From assembly GCA_014687725.1 (NCBI GenBank), contig GCA_014687725.1_4094.1: DNA of 64,000 nt, one strand, 5' to 3'. The DNA is from a phage. The notes beneath the pieces were generated by a model that was not told where the DNA came from, did not search any database, and was given only the letters and a program-made list of their open reading frames with translations. The translations under genes were made by a program, and so were the position numbers. Position 1 is the stretch's first letter. The number at the start of each line of letters is the position of its first letter. Of this stretch, positions 23-16,514 are shown in pieces.

Positions 23-224
<202 letters not shown>

Positions 225-7214: not shown

Positions 7215-8369
7215 TTATGCGTTGTAACCAACTATTACGACTGAGCAGTCAAGCGGTTCTACTACTTTAAGAATTACATTATCATCTTCATCCACTTGTA
7301 TTTCACTATGAACTACATGATTGTCTGAAGAATATAATTGAACTTGTGGTAGTGCTTTACCATGTTCAGTTACTGGAACTGAGATAGAGTACATAGAGTC
7401 TTCACCGAGAACCCACTCACTTAAAGTATATTCTTTATGGAAAGGAGTAGTATGCAGTGTTTTTCCGATTATACTCAAAGAAACAGGTAAATTATCAGTT
7501 TGATACACAGTAATATTACCTTCTGCGTCTACAGAAAGATCTACACCAACTTGATATAAGTCACCACTGTATGCTTGAAGTGCTAAGTACTGTCCACGAT
7601 CATGAACATCAAATGGAACAACCGCAGAAAATACACCTTCCGAAACAGGTTCAAATTGGGATAGAAGAACTGATGTAACAAAATCAATATCCTCACCACT
7701 TTCAAGAACATCAAATTCCACCACTTTAGTGTTATAATATGGAGAAGTGAGCGTAGCAGTACCTTTCCCTGATTGTGTGATAACATCAACTGGAATTGTA
7801 AATGCATCATTAACAAATTGGGTAGTAAAGTATTCTGTCCCGTCTGGTAATACGATTGTTATTACCATACCGTTAGTATCAATTTCTGAACCAGTGTTGA
7901 ATAATTTACCACTAATTGAGTCATTACCAACAAATACTGGTGAAATGAGAATATTATCTATATCACGATCTATAATACCACATTCAGGTGTATACATATG
8001 ATACAAGGTTTGTGAACTACCTAAAATTGTTTTATGTAGCATGAATTTATATACAAATCCAGTATCAGTTTCTTGTGGCTCTTCGGAATATCCACGAACA
8101 AAGAAACAATTTTTATTAATTTCACTTAATAGTTGGTCATTAGTTTTATTGTAATTTAATAGATAACCTTTATTATCTTTAGTTGTTATTTGTACTTTAC
8201 GATATATTATATTAGTTCTTGGGTCAACTAAATCATATAATCTATGGCTTCTTTGGCGATAGATTCTAATATTTTTTAGTCTAGTTCCATCGTTGAGGAT
8301 TGCACCATCAACAACATAACCACATTCACCAAACTTATAGCGTCCAGCCGCAGCAATTGACCTTGACAT
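7215..8369 (-). CDS. hypothetical protein (384 aa); lone minus-strand gene, possibly structural or adhesin-like
   Basis: Long ORF, GGAGGG RBS and TATAAT upstream on minus strand, terminator downstream. Confidence 0.65.
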   Translation of the reverse strand: MSRSIAAAGRYKFGECGYVVDGAILNDGTRLKNIRIYRQRSHRLYDLVDPRTNIIYRKVQITTKDNKGYLLNYNKTNDQLLSEINKNCFFVRGYSEEPQETDTGFVYKFMLHKTILGSSQTLYHMYTPECGIIDRDIDNILISPVFVGNDSISGKLFNTGSEIDTNGMVITIVLPDGTEYFTTQFVNDAFTIPVDVITQSGKGTATLTSPYYNTKVVEFDVLESGEDIDFVTSVLLSQFEPVSEGVFSAVVPFDVHDRGQYLALQAYSGDLYQVGVDLSVDAEGNITVYQTDNLPVSLSIIGKTLHTTPFHKEYTLSEWVLGEDSMYSISVPVTEHGKALPQVQLYSSDNHVVHSEIQVDEDDNVILKVVEPLDCSVVIVGYNA

Positions 8370-12646: not shown

Positions 12647-13144
12647 ATGACAACTGTTTATATTGATAAACGATTAAATTTATTGATTACCGATTCTAGA
12701 GTTACGTCAACTATACCACGAAACTTATTTGGTTTTTTCCCACTAAGACCAAAATATCAATATGGAGTTGTTAATCAAAAAACTTTATATGTACATGACC
12801 GTTTATTCAGTGCTAGTGGGTCAGTAAGTGAAATTGATAAAGTACTGGATTGGTTAATTAATAAAGTACCAGTTATACCTGACAGAAAGTTAAGTTGCCA
12901 TTGTGTGCTTCTTTCTAAAGATTATGTTATTCATATGATTTTAACTAAAGGAAAGTTTATTAAAAAACTTGAATATCTACATGAAGACTACACTTTCTTT
13001 ATGGGAAGTGGTGGAGAATACATGCTAGATGCTGCTATTCATGAAGAACATACAACTTTATATGATAAAGTGTTTAGTACTTTCATGGATGTGCATAACC
13101 ATGATTGCTTCACAGATGATAATATTAATGTATATCGATTTTGA
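12647..13144 (+). CDS. hypothetical protein (165 aa)
   Basis: ORF in cluster. Confidence 0.55.
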   Translation: MTTVYIDKRLNLLITDSRVTSTIPRNLFGFFPLRPKYQYGVVNQKTLYVHDRLFSASGSVSEIDKVLDWLINKVPVIPDRKLSCHCVLLSKDYVIHMILTKGKFIKKLEYLHEDYTFFMGSGGEYMLDAAIHEEHTTLYDKVFSTFMDVHNHDCFTDDNINVYRF

Positions 13145-13165
13145 TTTCGTCATTAGGAGATGTAA

Positions 13166-14131
13166 GTGAAAAAGCTTGATTTAAATACAATTGCCGAAGA
13201 AGTTCTGGATGAATGTTTTGCTAATGAAGAAGTCAACACACTAGAAGCCTTAGATTTCGTTGAAGATAAAGATGAAAATGAAGGTAAAGTACAAAGCAGT
13301 TTCAAATATAATATTACACTTAAGCGACCACCAAATGTTTCCAATGAAGATCTAATTCGTGATATTCAAGCTGGTATCAATGTAAAGAAAAACACTGAAC
13401 TGTTAGTTCGTTACAATTATGGACTTATTATTGATGTAGCAAGTAAATGTACTTGTTATATCCCATTTGAAGATAAGATTTCATATGGTGTTGAGGGGTT
13501 CATGAGAGCACTAAAAACCTTTGATCTTAATAAGAATGTGAAGTTCATTACCTATGCTTCTTCTAGTATTTACATGACAGTTTATAACGAAAGTTCTGAC
13601 GCTAACTATATGGTACACTTCCCACGTTATATGAGTGTTCATAAGATCAAAGTAAAAAGATTCTGCCAGGAATATATGCGTAAACATGGTGTTCGCCCAA
13701 CTCCTGAAATAATCTCAGAGGGTACTGGGATTGAGATTCAGCATGTTAATAACTGTTTGTTATTTCAAAGCGAATACACTTCTCTGGATGCACCATTAGA
13801 CGGTGTTACCGATGGTACACTAGGTGACATTATTCATTCACCTGCTTCTGATTTTAACCTCAATGTTGATAGTATTCGTGCACCTTTACGTTATGCTATC
13901 AATGAACTGACTAACGAATTGAGTACTAAAGAACGTGAGATTATCCAGCGTGTTCATGGTCTAGGTGAATATGAACCTGAAACGCTTCGTGAGATTGCTG
14001 ATAATGGTTTTGTTGATGATAATGGAAAATATGTTAAATCCCGTTCATCAATACATCGAAAGTACAGTGAAGCTATGCAAAAGCTTAAGAAGCTAGTACT
14101 TGCAAAAGGGTACGAATACGAAGATTTCTAA
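13166..14131 (+). CDS. sigma-70 family RNA polymerase sigma factor-like protein (321 aa)
   Basis: Region 2-like GVEGFMRALKTFDLNKNVKFITYASSSIYMTV, region 3-like KHGVRPTPEIISEGTGIEIQHV, region 4-like EREIIQRVHGLGEYEPETLREIADNG; GTG start with GGAG RBS. Confidence 0.65.
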   Translation: MKKLDLNTIAEEVLDECFANEEVNTLEALDFVEDKDENEGKVQSSFKYNITLKRPPNVSNEDLIRDIQAGINVKKNTELLVRYNYGLIIDVASKCTCYIPFEDKISYGVEGFMRALKTFDLNKNVKFITYASSSIYMTVYNESSDANYMVHFPRYMSVHKIKVKRFCQEYMRKHGVRPTPEIISEGTGIEIQHVNNCLLFQSEYTSLDAPLDGVTDGTLGDIIHSPASDFNLNVDSIRAPLRYAINELTNELSTKEREIIQRVHGLGEYEPETLREIADNGFVDDNGKYVKSRSSIHRKYSEAMQKLKKLVLAKGYEYEDF

Positions 14132-14139
14132 AGAAAAAA

Positions 14140-14164
14140 GGTTGGCTTATGCCAACCTTTTTTT
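14140..14164 (+). terminator. rho-independent terminator
   Basis: Hairpin GGTTGGC-TTAT-GCCAACC followed by T7. Confidence 0.75.
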
Positions 14165-14165
14165 A

Positions 14166-14689
14166 TGGGATGAAGTAAAAGTTTGTGATATAATTATCTT
14201 GTACAATTCTGTTGGCATGATATTCATGTACCTGATCCACTCGAAAACGTAGAGGGCAGTTGAGCAGTCCGACAGTGCGAACAGCAAAAGAAACCCGTTA
14301 GATGTGGGCATAGTTTGAACCCCTCACGGCAATGCGGCTGTATAAAGAACCACGTTAGGATAGCTGGTGGTTCCTTGATAGACATATAAGGATAACACCT
14401 TACGAATTATCTAAGGGAGAGTTATCAAATTTTGTACAGGAAAGTTGCGTCCAAAATTTGAGTACTCACATTAAGTATTTGATTGCATAGATACTTAATG
14501 AAGATACACTATGTTTAAAAGTGTAGACCGTCATATGAAACTGAAGTAGAGAGAAACAGGATGACCCGCTTTCGCACTCGTTATGAGTAATCTTCAATGC
14601 AATAGCTCTGATACCATCAGCGTCAAATTTCCCTCCTTGTGGGGGGGAAGAAAAATCCCTTCCTCAAATCCCGTCAATATTAAAAGTCC
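14166..14689. other. ORF-free, relatively GC-rich region; candidate structured noncoding RNA or regulatory region
   Basis: No ORF of 60 aa or more on either strand over about 520 bp despite dense coding elsewhere; internal hairpins such as GAACCAC...GTGGTTC. Confidence 0.3.
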
Positions 14690-14718
14690 TTGACAGTTAT
14701 TAATCATTCGCGTAGAAT
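14690..14718 (+). promoter_or_regulatory. sigma70-type promoter TTGACA-N17-TAGAAT
   Basis: TTGACA 14690-14695, TAGAAT 14713-14718. Confidence 0.5.
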
Positions 14719-14782
14719 ACGTAGTATTAGAAGCGAACAGACATCTCGAAGAGATGGATGATTAACCATTAAGGAATATCCA

Positions 14783-14992
14783 ATGAATTCAGTAATCTTT
14801 TTAGTAGTCGCTTTCTCTGTTAATTCCGGTATACAAATAACCCCAATGAATTCCATGAATCAATGCATAGCAGTACGTGATAGTACATACGAACAAGTAA
14901 ACAAAGATATTTGGATTACAGTTAATAAAGAACAAATGTGGTGTTACAATAGTAATACTAACACAAAGCTTATTGTAGGACAAACTCAATGA
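14783..14992 (+). CDS. hypothetical protein (69 aa), N-terminal hydrophobic
   Basis: ORF with AAGGAA RBS. Confidence 0.45.
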   Translation: MNSVIFLVVAFSVNSGIQITPMNSMNQCIAVRDSTYEQVNKDIWITVNKEQMWCYNSNTNTKLIVGQTQ

Positions 14993-15219
14993 GTTATGGT
15001 GTTCGTTTTGAGATTCGTTCTATTGTCATCGATGCAGAGAAACAAGTATCGTTAGATGGTGATATACGTGAAATTTATCTATCATGTATCCGTGCGAAAT
15101 CTGAAGCAGATGCCTTAGTACAAATGTATAGTTTTAACTTTTCAAATGGATTCTATTTGGTACGAGTTGTTGAAGTTAAAAAAGTAATTCTTGGTTGTTG
15201 CATAGAAGGAATAATGTAA
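14989..15219 (+). CDS. hypothetical protein (76 aa)
   Basis: Overlapping start with previous ORF. Confidence 0.45.
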   Translation: MSYGVRFEIRSIVIDAEKQVSLDGDIREIYLSCIRAKSEADALVQMYSFNFSNGFYLVRVVEVKKVILGCCIEGIM

Positions 15220-16008
15220 ATGAGCACTATCGATGAACTGATTCAACGGAATTCAAAATATTACCAACCATCAGAAATTGTGGATAACATTACTAAATCT
15301 GAGTTTGGACCGAACACACGCAAACTCATTCATGTAATGTCACGTGATGGCTTTAAATGTGATTGTTGTGGTGAATCAAATGTAGTATTCACTTTACACA
15401 AGCACAGTACTAAAGAACGTTATAAATTCAGACCTTATGTACTTAAAGGGAAACGCCTTGTACGCATGACGTTAGACCATAATGTACTGGACTGTCTTCA
15501 GGGCGGTAATGATAAAGAGAACATGACTGCACTGTGTGAAGATTGTAACGCATTACGCCAGCATAAGTTTGCTGAATACAGTGAGTTTAAACACTGGTAT
15601 CATAACGCGGATCGTTCAATCGAGCCTGACGTCAACTACTGCTTCATTGAGTACATTAAGAATGCCAAAGATACATACATTCTTAAATCAATGTCACCTA
15701 TTACCGTGTTTCCTGAGAACCTATTCACTACATTAAAGAATAGTTTTATTGTAGGTGATATTGATGCATTCAAGTATTTTGACAAAGGTGCAAAACATTT
15801 TGAAATTCAATGTCTTAGTACTGCACTATGTGAACTCATTAAAATTTACATAAAAGAGTATTTGGGTATTGACAATGTACGTGTACCAGAGTATACTTTT
15901 TCTATTGAATTCGATTGTGAATCAATCAAAGAGTTTGGAATTCTTTTCAATAAACAAATAGAACTTGCAATTCAACACGAAATCAAGTACTATACTACTA
16001 ACATTTAA
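15220..16008 (+). CDS. HNH-family endonuclease (homing-endonuclease-like), 262 aa
   Basis: Cys pairs CDCCG and CEDCN flanking DHNVLDCLQGGNDKENMTALC (HNH beta-beta-alpha-metal motif). Confidence 0.7.
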   Translation: MSTIDELIQRNSKYYQPSEIVDNITKSEFGPNTRKLIHVMSRDGFKCDCCGESNVVFTLHKHSTKERYKFRPYVLKGKRLVRMTLDHNVLDCLQGGNDKENMTALCEDCNALRQHKFAEYSEFKHWYHNADRSIEPDVNYCFIEYIKNAKDTYILKSMSPITVFPENLFTTLKNSFIVGDIDAFKYFDKGAKHFEIQCLSTALCELIKIYIKEYLGIDNVRVPEYTFSIEFDCESIKEFGILFNKQIELAIQHEIKYYTTNI

Positions 16009-16023
16009 TCAGAGGAAATTATC

Positions 16024-16206
16024 ATGCAAATTATCATTCTTATTGTTGGCATCATGCTGGGTGTTTACGGTCACTCCTGGATGAACGAGAAGTTTCCTAA
16101 TACGCGTCCTGAGTATTGCAGTTCTAATGTATTCCAGAATGGTGAGAAACCAAAGGAAAGCATTGGTAAAAAGCTGGATAAAGTACTTGATGTGATCAAT
16201 GAATAA
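16024..16206 (+). CDS. hypothetical small membrane protein (60 aa)
   Basis: N-terminal hydrophobic helix. Confidence 0.4.
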   Translation: MQIIILIVGIMLGVYGHSWMNEKFPNTRPEYCSSNVFQNGEKPKESIGKKLDKVLDVINE

Positions 16207-16417
16207 GGGCCATAAAATGTTTAAACCGAATTCCAATGTTGGAAAGAAAGTTCAATTACTTGAGGATGTATCCACTCTGAGTGGGATTTTCCCAAGAGGT
16301 CACATCATGACTATTATTGCCGAAACATCCCGTGGTTGGGACTTGGAAGATGCTGATGGTAATCGCATCCTTGAGGCTGGCTTCTATGGTCATCGTGAAT
16401 ATAAAATTATCGATTAA
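16199..16417 (+). CDS. hypothetical protein (72 aa)
   Basis: ORF in cluster. Confidence 0.45.
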   Translation: MNKGHKMFKPNSNVGKKVQLLEDVSTLSGIFPRGHIMTIIAETSRGWDLEDADGNRILEAGFYGHREYKIID

Positions 16418-16514
16418 GGATATAAAATGATGTTAGAGGCTATCGTTGGTATTGTTAGTTTTAGTCATCTGTGTTGCTTGCTTTGGGTATATGATGATTT
16501 TTGATGATTAATAC

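What the first reader, a model, noticed from the sequence alone, without database searches (positions are those of the whole stretch)
14166..14689. ORF-free, GC-enriched 0.5-kb island between the sigma gene and the HNH endonuclease gene
No ORF of 60 aa or more exists on either strand here, the sequence is visibly more GC-rich than its surroundings, and it contains several stable hairpins. Candidates are a structured noncoding RNA, an intron remnant linked to the adjacent HNH endonuclease, or a regulatory region. I cannot resolve which from sequence alone.
Basis: inference. Interest (0 to 1): 0.5.

Follow-up and report, generated by a model that had tools for sequence, protein, structure and literature searches.

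The report
New large structured RNA gene family
The ORF-free island is one of four copies per genome of an undescribed, roughly 450-500-nt intricately folded RNA with its own promoter; the family occurs in all RaK2-like jumbo phages and, unexpectedly, in small integrase-bearing islands of their enterobacterial hosts, and its function is not known.

Summary
Window 14132-14782 has no ORF of 60 aa or more on either strand, and GC is modestly raised (40% against 35%).

The window comes from a 121Q/PBECO4-like jumbo coliphage. The island is not an intron remnant. It is a self-contained RNA module:
- an extended -10 promoter (TGaTATAAT, 14186-14194);
- a core of about 430 nt with at least 15 helices and three long-range pseudoknots;
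- a GC hairpin and a CGTCAA end motif (to 14677).

121Q carries four diverged paralogues (about 70% identity), all on the + strand and in syntenic positions across genera. On a 30-sequence alignment, 91.6% of cells pair, against about 40% when partners are slid, and 68 of 105 pairs show compensatory changes. Rfam 15, ARAGORN and the literature searches gave nothing.

The family occurs in about 70 RaK2-like phage records and in phage metagenome contigs. Full-length copies also lie next to the integrase in small integrative islands of E. coli, Enterobacter, Serratia and Buttiauxella.

Function is unresolved. I favour a released, trans-acting folded RNA (about 50%). The main rival is a cis-acting RNA-primed replication origin that satellites could hijack (about 27%). 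No expression data were available.

The parts
14166..14171 (+). -35-like hexamer TGGGAT. It is GGGACA/GGAACA in other phage copies and TGAAAC(A/G) in the bacterial-island copies.
   Evidence: Aligned upstream regions. The TGAAACG -35 class is described for CBB/GAP32 phages (PMC5259590). A function as -35 element is inferred.
14186..14194 (+). Extended -10 promoter TGaTATAAT. The predicted transcription start is about 14201.
   Evidence: TATAAT is invariant or near-invariant at the same distance from the core in the 25 copies of alignment A3 and in most of the 30 in A4; TATACT in UE-S1 and in most island copies. The start site is inferred; no transcript data.
14209..14215 (+). 5' strand of pseudoknot PK3 (CUGUUGG). 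It pairs with the loop of hairpin H3.
   Evidence: A4 columns 48-54 with 133-139: 95% of cells paired, 6 of 7 pairs with compensatory changes, 12 sequence variants.
14215..14229 (+). Variable 5' hairpin H1.
   Evidence: A hairpin is present in every copy but with different length and sequence. It was not scored because the alignment is gappy there.
14232..14259 (+). Hairpin H2 with the invariant 9-nt loop GAAAAYGUA.
   Evidence: 6 of 8 pairs compensatory. A 35-nt BLAST match to Klebsiella phage RaK2 lies here.
14264..14278 (+). Hairpin H3. Its loop (14270-14275) is the 3' strand of PK3.
14281..14341 (+). Helices H4 and H5 enclosing hairpin H5b, with the invariant joining segment CGGCAAUGCGGC.
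   Evidence: H4 and H5 pair in 100% of cells and 4 pairs show compensatory changes. H5b is replaced by a larger insert in one paralogue type.
14347..14373 (+). Hairpin H7 (GAACCAC...GUGGUUC).
   Evidence: 6 of 6 pairs compensatory, 97.8% of cells paired.
14374..14418 (+). Conserved joining regions CUYGAUAGAYAUAUA and ...GCUAAGGGAG, flanking hairpin H8 (14387-14402).
   Evidence: Invariant columns in 30 sequences. H8 pairs in 98% of cells. A tentative 3-bp tertiary pairing, 14331-14333 with 14383-14385, was seen by eye only.
14419..14467 (+). Variable-length hairpin H9 carrying the optional inner module UUUUGUACA..GCGUCCAAAA.
   Evidence: The outer 4 pairs are all compensatory. The insert is present or absent among copies.
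14469..14500 (+). Hairpin H10. Its loop AUUGCAU (14482-14488) is the 5' strand of pseudoknot PK1.
   Evidence: 11 of 12 stem pairs compensatory.
14505..14525 (+). Hairpin H11 (UACAC...GUGUA).
   Evidence: Present in all copies and recovered in the MFE fold. Not scored by columns because long and short versions align differently.
14527..14534 (+). Invariant GACCGU and the 5' strand of pseudoknot PK2 (GUCAU, 14530-14534).
   Evidence: PK2 pairs in 100% of cells, with 3 of 5 pairs compensatory and 6 variants.
14542..14596 (+). Helix H12 enclosing H13 and H15. The conserved 15-nt loop of H13 holds the PK2 3' strand AUGAC (14561-14565).
   Evidence: H12 pairs in 100% of cells with 4 of 5 pairs compensatory; H15 has 5 of 5 compensatory.
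14597..14603 (+). 3' strand of pseudoknot PK1 (AUGCAAU).
   Evidence: 7-bp pairing, 98.6% of cells paired, 8 variants among phages and 3 more in bacterial copies, all complementary apart from occasional mismatches at the outermost pair.
14608..14627 (+). Hairpin H16 (CUGAU-ACC-AUCAG) followed by the first CGUCAA motif. In most other copies an intrinsic terminator follows here; this copy lacks it.
   Evidence: The terminator hairpin covaries in 24 of 30 copies (5 of 6 pairs). It is absent in the C1-type copies, in 121Q copy C2 and in two island copies.
14628..14649 (+). Universal GC hairpin H17 (UUUCCCUCC-UUGU-GGGGGGGAA; elsewhere UUCAUUCCCC-UGCG-GGGGGAUGAA).
   Evidence: Conserved in every phage and island copy, mostly by sequence with G.U-compatible changes.
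14664..14677 (+). End motif CAAAUCYCGUCAR, which repeats the CGUCAR of 14621-14626. It marks the 3' limit of conservation.
   Evidence: Similarity between the E. coli island and phages stops exactly here.
14133..14165 (+). Context only: the terminator hairpin of the upstream sigma gene, which bounds the module on the left.
   Evidence: Sequence. Matched only by terminator portions of unrelated sRNA models. Annotated as a terminator in phage G17.
14690..14718 (+). Context only: the sigma-70-type promoter TTGACA-17-TAGAAT of the downstream ORFs, which bounds the module on the right.
   Evidence: 11 of 12 matches.

Best explanation
Window 14166-14677 is a stand-alone gene (copy 'C1') for a large, intricately folded noncoding RNA of a family not present in Rfam 15.

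Proposed sequence of events, with each step marked:
- Host RNA polymerase, possibly helped by a phage factor that reads the TGAAAC/GGAACA-type -35, starts at about 14201 from an extended -10 promoter (inferred).
- It transcribes about 430-480 nt on the + strand.
- The RNA folds into at least 15 helices locked by three long-range pseudoknots: PK3 (5' leader with the H3 loop), PK2 (the GACCGU-adjacent strand with the H13 loop) and PK1 (the H10 loop with the strand after H12) (shown by covariation).
- In most family members the transcript ends at an intrinsic terminator. This copy lacks one and probably ends at or after the GC hairpin H17 (inferred).

Each RaK2-like jumbo phage keeps 3-5 anciently diverged paralogues at syntenic positions.

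I commit to the reading that the released, folded RNA itself is the active agent in the infected cell. It would act as a protein-binding scaffold, a self-assembling particle or a ribozyme at early to middle times.

Confidence is about 0.95 that this is a selected RNA structure and module, and about 0.5 that it acts in trans rather than in cis. The confidence value given for this explanation (0.5) refers to the full statement, including trans action.
For: Family and copy number:
- Four paralogues in 121Q (about 70-80% identity), all on the + strand.
- 62-71 RaK2-like phage records across 9 host genera, with 3-5 places each in the records that carry full-length matches.
- RaK2 and XaC1 copies found.
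- 30 metagenome loci.

Structure:
- RNAalifold on 25 sequences: 45 of 69 pairs with compensatory changes.
- My structure on 30 sequences: 91.6% of cells paired against 39-43% when slid; 68 of 105 pairs compensatory; covariation 0.429 against 0.07 (slid) and 0.149 (shuffled), 0 of 500 shuffles as high.
- PK1, PK2 and PK3 have 8, 6 and 12 sequence variants, with further PK1 variants in the bacterial copies; nearly all are fully complementary.

Strand and transcription unit:
- A conserved -10 or extended -10 sits at a fixed distance from the core.
- A covarying intrinsic terminator occurs in 24 of 30 copies.
- G.U cells outnumber A.C cells 180 to 92.
- The C4-type copy lies antisense between two minus-strand genes in every genus, so it is its own transcription unit.

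Not coding: there is no conserved ORF, and the longest ORFs are 40-98 aa at varying positions.

For trans action: the elaborate tertiary fold with about 90 invariant, largely unpaired nucleotides, and a terminator directly after the core.
Against: - There is no transcript evidence of any kind. The tools offer no RNA-seq, and the only transcriptome of a relative (PA5oct, PMC7318152) concerns ncRNAs with no detectable similarity.
- Single-sequence folding energy is only marginally below shuffles.
- This copy has a poor -35 and no terminator.
- Conservation continues beyond the terminator (H17 and the CGUCAR motif), which a simply terminated trans-acting RNA does not explain.
- The dispersed, syntenic copies fit a cis-acting role at least as well. 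So does the module's presence as the only phage-like sequence in integrase islands that lack replication and packaging genes.
- No partner protein or target was identified.
Confidence: 0.5

Rival explanations
1. Cis-acting, RNA-primed replication origin. A phage middle-type promoter makes a structured pre-primer RNA. This RNA forms a persistent R-loop at the G-run/C-run hairpin H17 and the CGUCAR site, and is processed (for example by the phage RNase H) to prime leading-strand synthesis. This would resemble T4 oriF/oriG and ColE1 RNA II. The 3-5 dispersed copies would be the origins of the 350-kb genome. Integrase-only islands would carry one copy so that the T4-like replisome of an infecting jumbo phage amplifies them.
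For: - 3-5 dispersed copies at about 90, 193, 247.5 and 326.6 kb in 121Q, syntenic across genera.
- The promoter -35 is of the TGAAACG class reported in CBB mostly upstream of a region rich in DNA-synthesis genes.
- Sequence conservation continues past the terminator into an invariant C4-5/G6-7 hairpin and a sharp end motif.
- The terminator is optional.
- The module is the only phage-like DNA in roughly 10-kb islands that have an integrase but no replication or packaging genes.
- Islands with only an integrase and defence cargo have been shown to be jumbo-phage satellites (PMC12595487).
- These phages encode T4-type replication proteins, including a UvsW-like helicase and RNase H.
Against: - Known primer or R-loop RNAs do not have multi-pseudoknot folds with many invariant unpaired bases.
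- A covarying intrinsic terminator upstream of the supposed priming site in most copies would release the RNA.
- Cumulative GC skew shows no inflection at the four sites, although skew follows transcription here and is uninformative.
- There is no experimental origin mapping.
- It is not shown that the islands are satellites of these phages.
Confidence: 0.27
2. Cis-regulatory RNA. This could be a leader or processive-antitermination element (HK022 put-like or lambda nut/qut-like). It could also be a phage-sensing switch that lets polymerase started at this promoter read through the terminator into downstream genes. In some islands that read-through would run antisense into the CI-like repressor gene.
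For: - The order promoter, structured RNA, terminator, then downstream genes is seen in most copies.
- All copies face the same way as the bulk of genes.
- In islands L130, L119 and L122 the module converges on a CI-like repressor gene.
Against: - The C4-type copy has no co-oriented gene downstream in any genus.
- The window copy is followed by an independent strong promoter and lacks a terminator to control.
- At about 450 nt with three pseudoknots it is far larger than any known antitermination RNA.
- Orientation matching is expected by chance, since about 85% of the genome is + strand.
Confidence: 0.08
3. Degenerate group I or II intron, or another mobile intron remnant, associated with the nearby HNH homing endonuclease.
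For: Only the proximity of an HNH-like gene in this copy, and the general habit of T4-like phages to carry such introns. 121Q gene 584 is annotated as 'protein associated with group I intron' elsewhere in the genome.
Against: - No gene is interrupted.
- The four paralogues are all intergenic.
- No intron covariance model matched at E<=10 on this copy or at E<=1 on eight other loci.
- The element has its own promoter.
- The HNH-like gene is separated from it by a promoter and two ORFs, and is about 4 kb away in Serratia phage BF.
Confidence: 0.01
4. A DNA-level repeat with no RNA function, such as a recombination or packaging site or a protein-binding array. A variant of this rival is that the region holds short, unannotated protein-coding genes.
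For: - Several GenBank records annotate 3-6 'hypothetical proteins' over it.
- UE-S1 annotates a repeat_region.
- H17 is conserved by sequence rather than by covariation.
Against: - Strand-specific compensatory changes in helices and pseudoknots cannot be explained by duplex-DNA recognition.
- No ORF is conserved in position or frame.
- Optional helical inserts keep pairing but not reading frame.
Confidence: 0.03

Closest known systems
GOLLD and ROOL RNAs (large ornate phage or prophage-borne RNAs that form RNA-only homo-oligomeric cages; PMC12286853)
   Same: Size class (about 500 nt or more), many helices and pseudoknots, carried by phages, transcribed as separate units, function unknown. 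Loop-strand pairings such as PK1 could in principle be intermolecular, as in those assemblies.
   Different: - No match to their Rfam models.
- Different hosts: Enterobacterales and Xanthomonas jumbo phages.
- 3-5 diverged paralogues per genome.
- Also present next to integrases in chromosomal islands.
- Oligomerisation was not tested.
T4 oriF/oriG R-loop origins and the ColE1 RNA II pre-primer (established knowledge, not tested here)
   Same: A dedicated promoter makes a noncoding RNA at a few dispersed sites of a T4-like genome. The RNA II analogy covers a long folded RNA, a G-rich element near the 3' end and RNase H encoded by the phage. T4 ori plasmids are replicated and packaged by the phage, which would explain a satellite carrying the module.
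   Different: - T4 origin RNAs have no conserved fold.
- RNA II has no pseudoknots and is controlled by an antisense RNA I.
- Here a terminator usually precedes the G-rich hairpin.
- No origin activity has been shown.
Pseudomonas phage PA5oct ncRNA001-004 (RNA-seq-defined, 236-619 nt; PMC7318152)
   Same: A distant relative of the RaK2-like group also has four ORF-free, actively transcribed loci. Two of them are very abundant (about 5% of phage reads).
   Different: No sequence or covariance-model similarity for ncRNA001 and ncRNA002. ncRNA003 and ncRNA004 were not examined. Homology is unsupported, and only the concept is parallel.
phi29 prohead RNA (pRNA) (established knowledge)
   Same: A phage-encoded structured RNA whose covarying loop-loop pairing is functionally essential (there intermolecular).
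   Different: pRNA is 120-174 nt, single copy, and part of a phi29-type packaging motor. T4-type terminases need no RNA. There is no similarity and no test.
Group I introns with HNH or GIY-YIG homing endonucleases of T4-like phages, and HEARO/omega RNA of IscB
   Different: - The element lies outside any gene and has its own promoter.
- No intron or HEARO model matches.
- The neighbouring protein is 262 aa with no RuvC or IscB architecture and is not conserved beside other copies.
Integrase-plus-defence genomic islands transduced by jumbo phages (I55 and JPTI55 in Pseudomonas; PMC12595487)
   Same: The bacterial carriers of this RNA have the same layout. They are integrated next to a small stable-RNA gene (ffs here, tmRNA there), and carry an integrase, defence-like cargo and no transfer, replication or packaging genes.
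   Different: That paper reports no shared noncoding element, and its helper is a different type of jumbo phage. Mobilisation of the enterobacterial islands by RaK2-like phages is untested.

Membership tests
Group I intron | Interrupts a host gene; the flanking exons reconstitute an ORF or RNA. | tested here: not met
   The sigma gene is complete with a stop codon and terminator. The downstream ORF has its own promoter and RBS. The four paralogues are all intergenic.
Group I intron | Conserved P3-P9 catalytic core detectable by the Rfam covariance model. | tested here: not met
   No Intron_gpI hit at E<=10 on 14050-14850, or at E<=1 on eight loci with other copies.
Group I/II intron with homing endonuclease | Endonuclease ORF inside a peripheral loop or fused to the intron. 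| tested here: not met
   No ORF of 60 aa or more lies inside. The HNH-like gene starts 543 nt after the end motif, behind a promoter and two ORFs.
tmRNA / tRNA-like | tRNA-like domain and tag reading frame. | tested here: not met
   ARAGORN finds only four tRNAs, at 36-1884. There are no Rfam tmRNA or tRNA hits in the region.
HEARO / omega RNA (IscB) | Match to the HEARO model, and location in the 5' region of an IscB (RuvC plus HNH, about 400-500 aa) gene. | tested here: not met
   No Rfam hit. The neighbouring protein is 262 aa with no Pfam domain at E<=0.01.
GOLLD / ROOL / OLE / raiA large RNAs | Match to the family covariance model. | tested here: not met
   Rfam 15 gathering and E-value modes give no match.
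Independent bacterial-type sRNA gene | Own promoter and own intrinsic terminator. | tested here: inconclusive
   The promoter consensus is conserved in all copies. The terminator is present and covarying in 24 of 30 copies but absent in this one. Both are sequence predictions only.
T4-type R-loop origin | Middle-mode promoter driving a noncoding transcript. | tested here: inconclusive
   The -35 is TGGGAT, GGAACA or TGAAAC(A/G), resembling the 'divergent RpoD-like' TGAAACG class of CBB/GAP32. The temporal class is not known.
T4-type R-loop origin / ColE1 RNA II | Persistent RNA-DNA hybrid, RNase H processing and DNA synthesis starting at the site; plasmid amplification on infection. | not testable with these tools
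   There is only circumstantial sequence evidence (G-run/C-run hairpin H17, a sharp end motif). GC skew is uninformative.
The new family itself (RaK2-like phage large RNA) | Helices H2-H16 with PK1, PK2 and PK3; invariant GAAAAYGUA, CGGCAAU, GAUAGA, UAAGGGA, GACCGU and ACCCGCUU blocks; GC hairpin H17; CGUCAR end. | tested here: met
   The window copy scores 162 bits (E 6e-42) with 5'-domain model R1, and all pseudoknot strands are complementary.

The most novel reading that the evidence does not exclude
The module would be the molecular 'handle' shared between RaK2-like jumbo phages and a hitherto unrecognised class of minimalist satellites. It would be an RNA-primed, structure-dependent replication origin, or an RNA subunit of the replication or packaging machinery. 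The phage would keep it in 3-5 copies. Integrase-only islands of E. coli, Enterobacter, Serratia and Buttiauxella would have captured it in order to be amplified and carried by the phage.
Probability: 0.27. Interest if true: 0.9.

Novelty: new variant of a known kind. Interest (0 to 1): 0.75.

Why it matters
Large RNAs with several pseudoknots and many invariant unpaired bases are rare. They have historically turned out to be ribozymes, RNP cores or, recently, RNA-only cages. This one has several features that make it worth study:
- It sits in cultivable E. coli phages (121Q, PBECO4, G17 and others).
- It is kept in 3-5 ancient paralogues.
- It is missed or mis-annotated as 'hypothetical proteins' in GenBank records.
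- It gives a concrete sequence link between jumbo phages and small integrase-plus-defence islands. How such islands exploit jumbo phages is an open question after the 2025 demonstration of jumbo-phage satellites.

Both leading readings, a trans-acting folded RNA and an RNA-primed origin, are directly testable in an easy host.

Tried and rejected
- Rfam 15 on the whole window (gathering), on 14050-14850 (E<=10) and on eight loci with other copies (E<=1) gave only tRNAs and terminator-type noise.
- ARAGORN found no tmRNA.
- BLAST of the region against the window itself found no second copy there. Model R1 confirms exactly one copy in the window and four in the genome.
- PA5oct ncRNA001 and ncRNA002 showed no similarity by nhmmer or by the covariance model.
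- Plasmid collection: no match.
- The first, over-strict pattern scan of bacterial genomes found nothing. This was misleading, because BLAST against E. coli genomes and a looser pattern then found eight bacterial copies.
- Cumulative GC skew of the reconstructed 121Q genome follows gene orientation only, with no signal at the four loci.
- A proposed pairing of the H2 loop with UGCG (14332-14335) was dropped. It shows only wobble-compatible variation and conflicts with a better candidate, 14331-14333 with 14383-14385, which itself remains tentative.
- A genome-free scan for single covarying column pairs was swamped by phylogenetic correlation and was not used.
- My column register for hairpin H16 was wrong for most sequences because of an indel (33% paired). 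The hairpin exists in each sequence but was not scored properly.
- A search for a protein shared by phages and islands next to the RNA found none.
- Literature searches (jumbo-phage genome papers for RaK2, CBB and Sharanji, the Iyer et al. overview, viral structured-RNA surveys, and GOLLD/ROOL papers) gave no description of this element.
Full report
**What the window is.** The region and its flanks are 99% or more identical to Escherichia phages 121Q, PBECO4, G17 and relatives (Asteriusvirus; about 350-kb RaK2-like jumbo myoviruses). Window position x corresponds to 121Q position x + 76,101.

**The observation.**
- The longest ORF touching 14166-14689 is 54 aa.
- Window 14132-14782 is one of only three stretches of 300 nt or more in the window with no ORF of 60 aa or more in six frames.
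- GC is 40.1% against 34.6% for the window, the 94th percentile. This is real but modest.
- Folding energy of the single sequence is only slightly better than shuffles (z = -1.85 on +, -2.82 on -). The 'stable hairpins' are therefore not significant on their own.
- On the left lies a sigma-70-family gene (Pfam regions 2, 3 and 4) ending in a clear terminator hairpin at 14133-14165.
- On the right lie a strong sigma-70-type promoter (14690-14718), two small ORFs, and then the 262-aa homologue of the 121Q 'HNH endonuclease', which has no Pfam hit.

**It is a repeated, conserved element.** BLAST against phage records showed that the non-coding core is more conserved than its flanks. In relatives where the whole query is 90% identical, the core is 96% identical. 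Each genome with full-length matches has 3-5 matching places. I fetched the whole 121Q genome and found four copies, all on the + strand and all in annotated gene gaps:

| Copy | Position in 121Q | Flanking genes |
|---|---|---|
| C1 | this locus | sigma gene upstream |
| C2 | 192,844-193,316 | g415 and g416 |
| C3 | 247,513-248,041 | g515 and g517; the 51-aa g516 annotated inside it is probably spurious |
| C4 | 326,612-327,172 | endonuclease VII gene and g595/baseplate hub, both on the minus strand |

The copies are 70-80% identical to each other. A covariance model of the 5' domain finds exactly these four and nothing else in the genome.

Synteny shows that the duplications predate the genera. 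C4-type copies lie between endo VII and the hub gene in more than 20 loci from Cronobacter, Pectobacterium, Serratia, Yersinia and uncultured phages. C2-type copies are flanked by g415/g416 homologues in Klebsiella phage RaK2, and by a g416 homologue in Xanthomonas phage XaC1.

**Anatomy.** Every copy has the following parts in order:
- A -35-like GGGACA/GGAACA (TGGGAT here) and an extended -10 TGnTATAAT (14186-14194).
- A variable 5' hairpin.
- A core of about 430 nt.
- A hairpin (H16) ending in CGUCAR.
- Usually a short intrinsic terminator (hairpin plus U6-7).
- An almost invariant GC hairpin, UUCAUUCCCC-UGCG-GGGGGAUGAA (H17).
- The motif CAAAUCYCGUCAR, where conservation stops.

The window copy, other C1-type copies and 121Q C2 lack the terminator hairpin.

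**Structure.**
- RNAalifold on the four paralogues already gave 33 of 81 pairs with double compensatory changes. On 25 sequences it gave 45 of 69.
- Reading the alignment, I added three long-range pseudoknots:
  - PK1: H10 loop 14482-14488 with 14597-14603.
  - PK2: 14530-14534 with the H13 loop 14561-14565.
  - PK3: 14209-14215 with the H3 loop 14270-14275.
- Counted on a 30-sequence, 96%-non-redundant alignment, 91.6% of cells form standard pairs against 39-43% when partners are slid by 1-3 columns. 68 of 105 pairs have changes on both sides. The covariation score is 0.429 against about 0.07 (slid) and 0.149 (shuffled; 0 of 500 shuffles reach it).
- PK1 occurs in eight sequence versions, PK2 in six and PK3 in twelve, nearly all fully complementary. 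RaK2, XaC1 and the bacterial copies add further compensated versions of PK1.
- About 90 columns are invariant, many of them unpaired: GAAAAYGUA, CGGCAAU, GAUAGA, UAAGGGA, GACCGU and ACCCGCUU.
- The functional strand is +. The evidence is promoter and terminator orientation, and 180 G.U against 92 A.C cells.
- No ORF is conserved.

Caveat: I derived the structure partly from these same sequences, so the slid-partner control is somewhat favourable to it. The sheer number of independent compensatory variants is the stronger argument.

**Known families.**
- Rfam 15 gives nothing at gathering thresholds, nor in permissive mode on this copy or on eight other loci.
- ARAGORN finds no tmRNA.
- The intron idea fails each defining test: no interrupted gene, no intron core, no internal endonuclease ORF. 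The HNH-like gene is a separate unit that is not conserved beside other copies.
- The four RNA-seq-defined ncRNAs of the distant relative PA5oct (PMC7318152) are a conceptual parallel. ncRNA001 and ncRNA002 show no similarity.
- I found no description of the element in the genome papers or surveys searched. GenBank records leave it blank, call part of it a repeat_region, or cover it with hypothetical ORFs.

**Distribution.**
- 62-71 phage records, all RaK2-like, with hosts Escherichia, Klebsiella, Salmonella, Erwinia, Yersinia, Serratia, Pectobacterium, Cronobacter and Xanthomonas.
- IMG/VR and metagenome contigs of 350-370 kb or fragments of them.
- No plasmids.
- Unexpectedly, BLAST against complete E. 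coli genomes found the element in 2 of 5,426 genomes.

**The E. coli island.** In strain LR-29-1 a complete module lies in an island of about 10 kb between ffs and ybaA. The module has the promoter TGTGATATAAT, all helices, all three pseudoknots, the terminator, H17 and the CGTCAG end, and scores 115.5 bits with R1. The island carries:
- a tyrosine integrase split by IS3;
- unknown proteins;
- an mSLOG-DUF4326/DUF488/DuOB gene set;
- a resolvase;
- no replication, capsid or packaging genes.

Only the module itself (L118:5999-6544) resembles phage DNA, at no more than 80.6% identity to Serratia phage BF.

**Other bacterial copies.** A looser pattern scan of species-representative genomes plus the covariance model found seven more full-length bacterial copies:
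- Serratia fonticola;
- Serratia sp. 2723;
- Enterobacter chinensis;
- Enterobacteriaceae bacterium RIT714;
- a Buttiauxella MAG;
- an Enterobacteriaceae MAG;
- a probably misbinned 2.8-kb 'Clostridium' contig.

In four of these loci (E. coli, RIT714, Serratia sp. 2723 and Enterobacter chinensis) the RNA lies directly after a tyrosine or large serine integrase gene. It is often followed by a divergent CI-like repressor (HTH plus S24), a Ner-like HTH protein and a shared membrane protein. Their promoters read TGAAAC(A/G/T)-N17-TATACT. That is the 'divergent RpoD-like' -35 (TGAAACG) reported for CBB and GAP32, concentrated upstream of a region rich in DNA-synthesis genes (PMC5259590). This suggests, but does not show, that the island copy is switched on by an infecting phage.

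Islands with only an integrase and defence cargo were recently shown to be satellites transduced by a jumbo phage in Pseudomonas (PMC12595487). That work mentions no shared noncoding element.

**How it most likely works.**

Shown:
- A selected, strand-specific, multi-pseudoknot RNA fold.
- A conserved promoter-like element in front of it.
- A covarying terminator behind it in most copies.
- 3-5 ancient paralogues per phage.
- Capture of the module by chromosomal islands.

Inferred:
- Transcription from about 14201.
- The 3' end.
- The temporal class.
- Everything about function.

I weigh two readings.

1. A released, trans-acting folded RNA: a protein scaffold, a self-assembling particle or a ribozyme. 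This fits the elaborate tertiary fold, the invariant unpaired bases and the terminator right after the core.
2. A cis-acting, RNA-primed origin of the T4 oriF/oriG or ColE1 RNA II kind. This fits several observations:
   - the dispersed syntenic copies, whose number is similar to that of T4 origins;
   - the middle-type promoter;
   - conservation running past the terminator into a C-run/G-run hairpin and a sharp end;
   - above all, the module being the only phage-derived piece of islands that have no replication genes.

   It fits the fold and the terminator poorly.

My rough weighting is about 50% trans, about 27% origin, about 8% cis-regulatory, and the rest other or unknown. GC skew cannot discriminate, and no partner protein is shared between phages and islands.

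**Verdict.** It is a new family of large structured RNAs. It is not an intron remnant and not a member of any Rfam family. It is multi-copy in cultivable jumbo coliphages and shared with satellite-like islands. Its function is unresolved and there is no expression evidence yet.

Noticed in passing
window 58780-60044 and 62133-62559 (121Q 135,195-137,160 carries no annotated gene): These are the other two long stretches without ORFs of 60 aa or more. The area is full of repeated promoter cassettes (AAAGTACTTGCAAA-N17-TATAAT at 60677, 61139, 61814, 62373 and 62491), the palindrome TTCAGTACTGAA, and a roughly 70-nt repeat, GGGTGCGGGAG...GCACCCNGTGGG, at 60072, 60288 and 62221. Rfam and model R1 find nothing there.
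   Followed up: partly
window 14432-14458; also L007 around 7960-7990 and many non-E. coli copies: A roughly 30-nt sub-module, UUUUG-UACA(N6-8)GYGUC-CAAAA, occurs as an optional insert at two different places of the RNA (the tip of H9 and the tip of H15). This suggests a portable tertiary-contact or protein-binding motif.
   Followed up: no
L118:8995-10726 (E. coli LR-29-1 island); 121Q 231,088-231,405: The island cargo is an mSLOG-DUF4326 / DUF488 / DuOB gene trio, a predicted conflict system. Its DUF4326 protein has a 41%-identical relative in phage 121Q next to nrdD/nrdG.
   Followed up: no
L027:6897-7730, and likewise L019, L024, L017, L012, L038: In non-E. coli RaK2-like phages, one RNA paralogue is immediately followed by a gene 25-30% identical to a chromosomal 334-aa protein of an Enterobacteriaceae MAG (L122:1035-2039). 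From its sequence that protein looks like an ADP-ribosylglycohydrolase; this is my reading and was not tested.
   Followed up: no
L007:7799-7954 (121Q gene 516); OR699182, PQ390715 and other records over the element: Small 'hypothetical protein' genes annotated inside copies of the RNA, up to six per locus in some records, are not conserved and are probably annotation artefacts.
   Followed up: partly
window 14133-14165: The obvious sigma-gene terminator (GGTTGGC-TTAT-GCCAACC plus T7, flanked by A6, so potentially bidirectional) was not reported by the terminator scan. That scan listed 0 sites in 13000-16500, so its negatives should not be trusted.
   Followed up: no
window 36-127: ARAGORN calls a 92-nt tRNA-Ser with anticodon ACT at the head of a tRNA cluster (Ser, Met, Asn at 36-301; Thr at 1811-1884). 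The same call appears in the 121Q record. An A34 anticodon is unusual for bacterial-type tRNA-Ser.
   Followed up: no
L129 (DPOH01000171.1, 'Clostridium sp. UBA10317', 2.8-kb contig): This contig carries an RNA copy that scores identically or nearly so to the Enterobacterales island copies in both the profile and covariance-model searches, so it is most likely mis-binned in that MAG.
   Followed up: no
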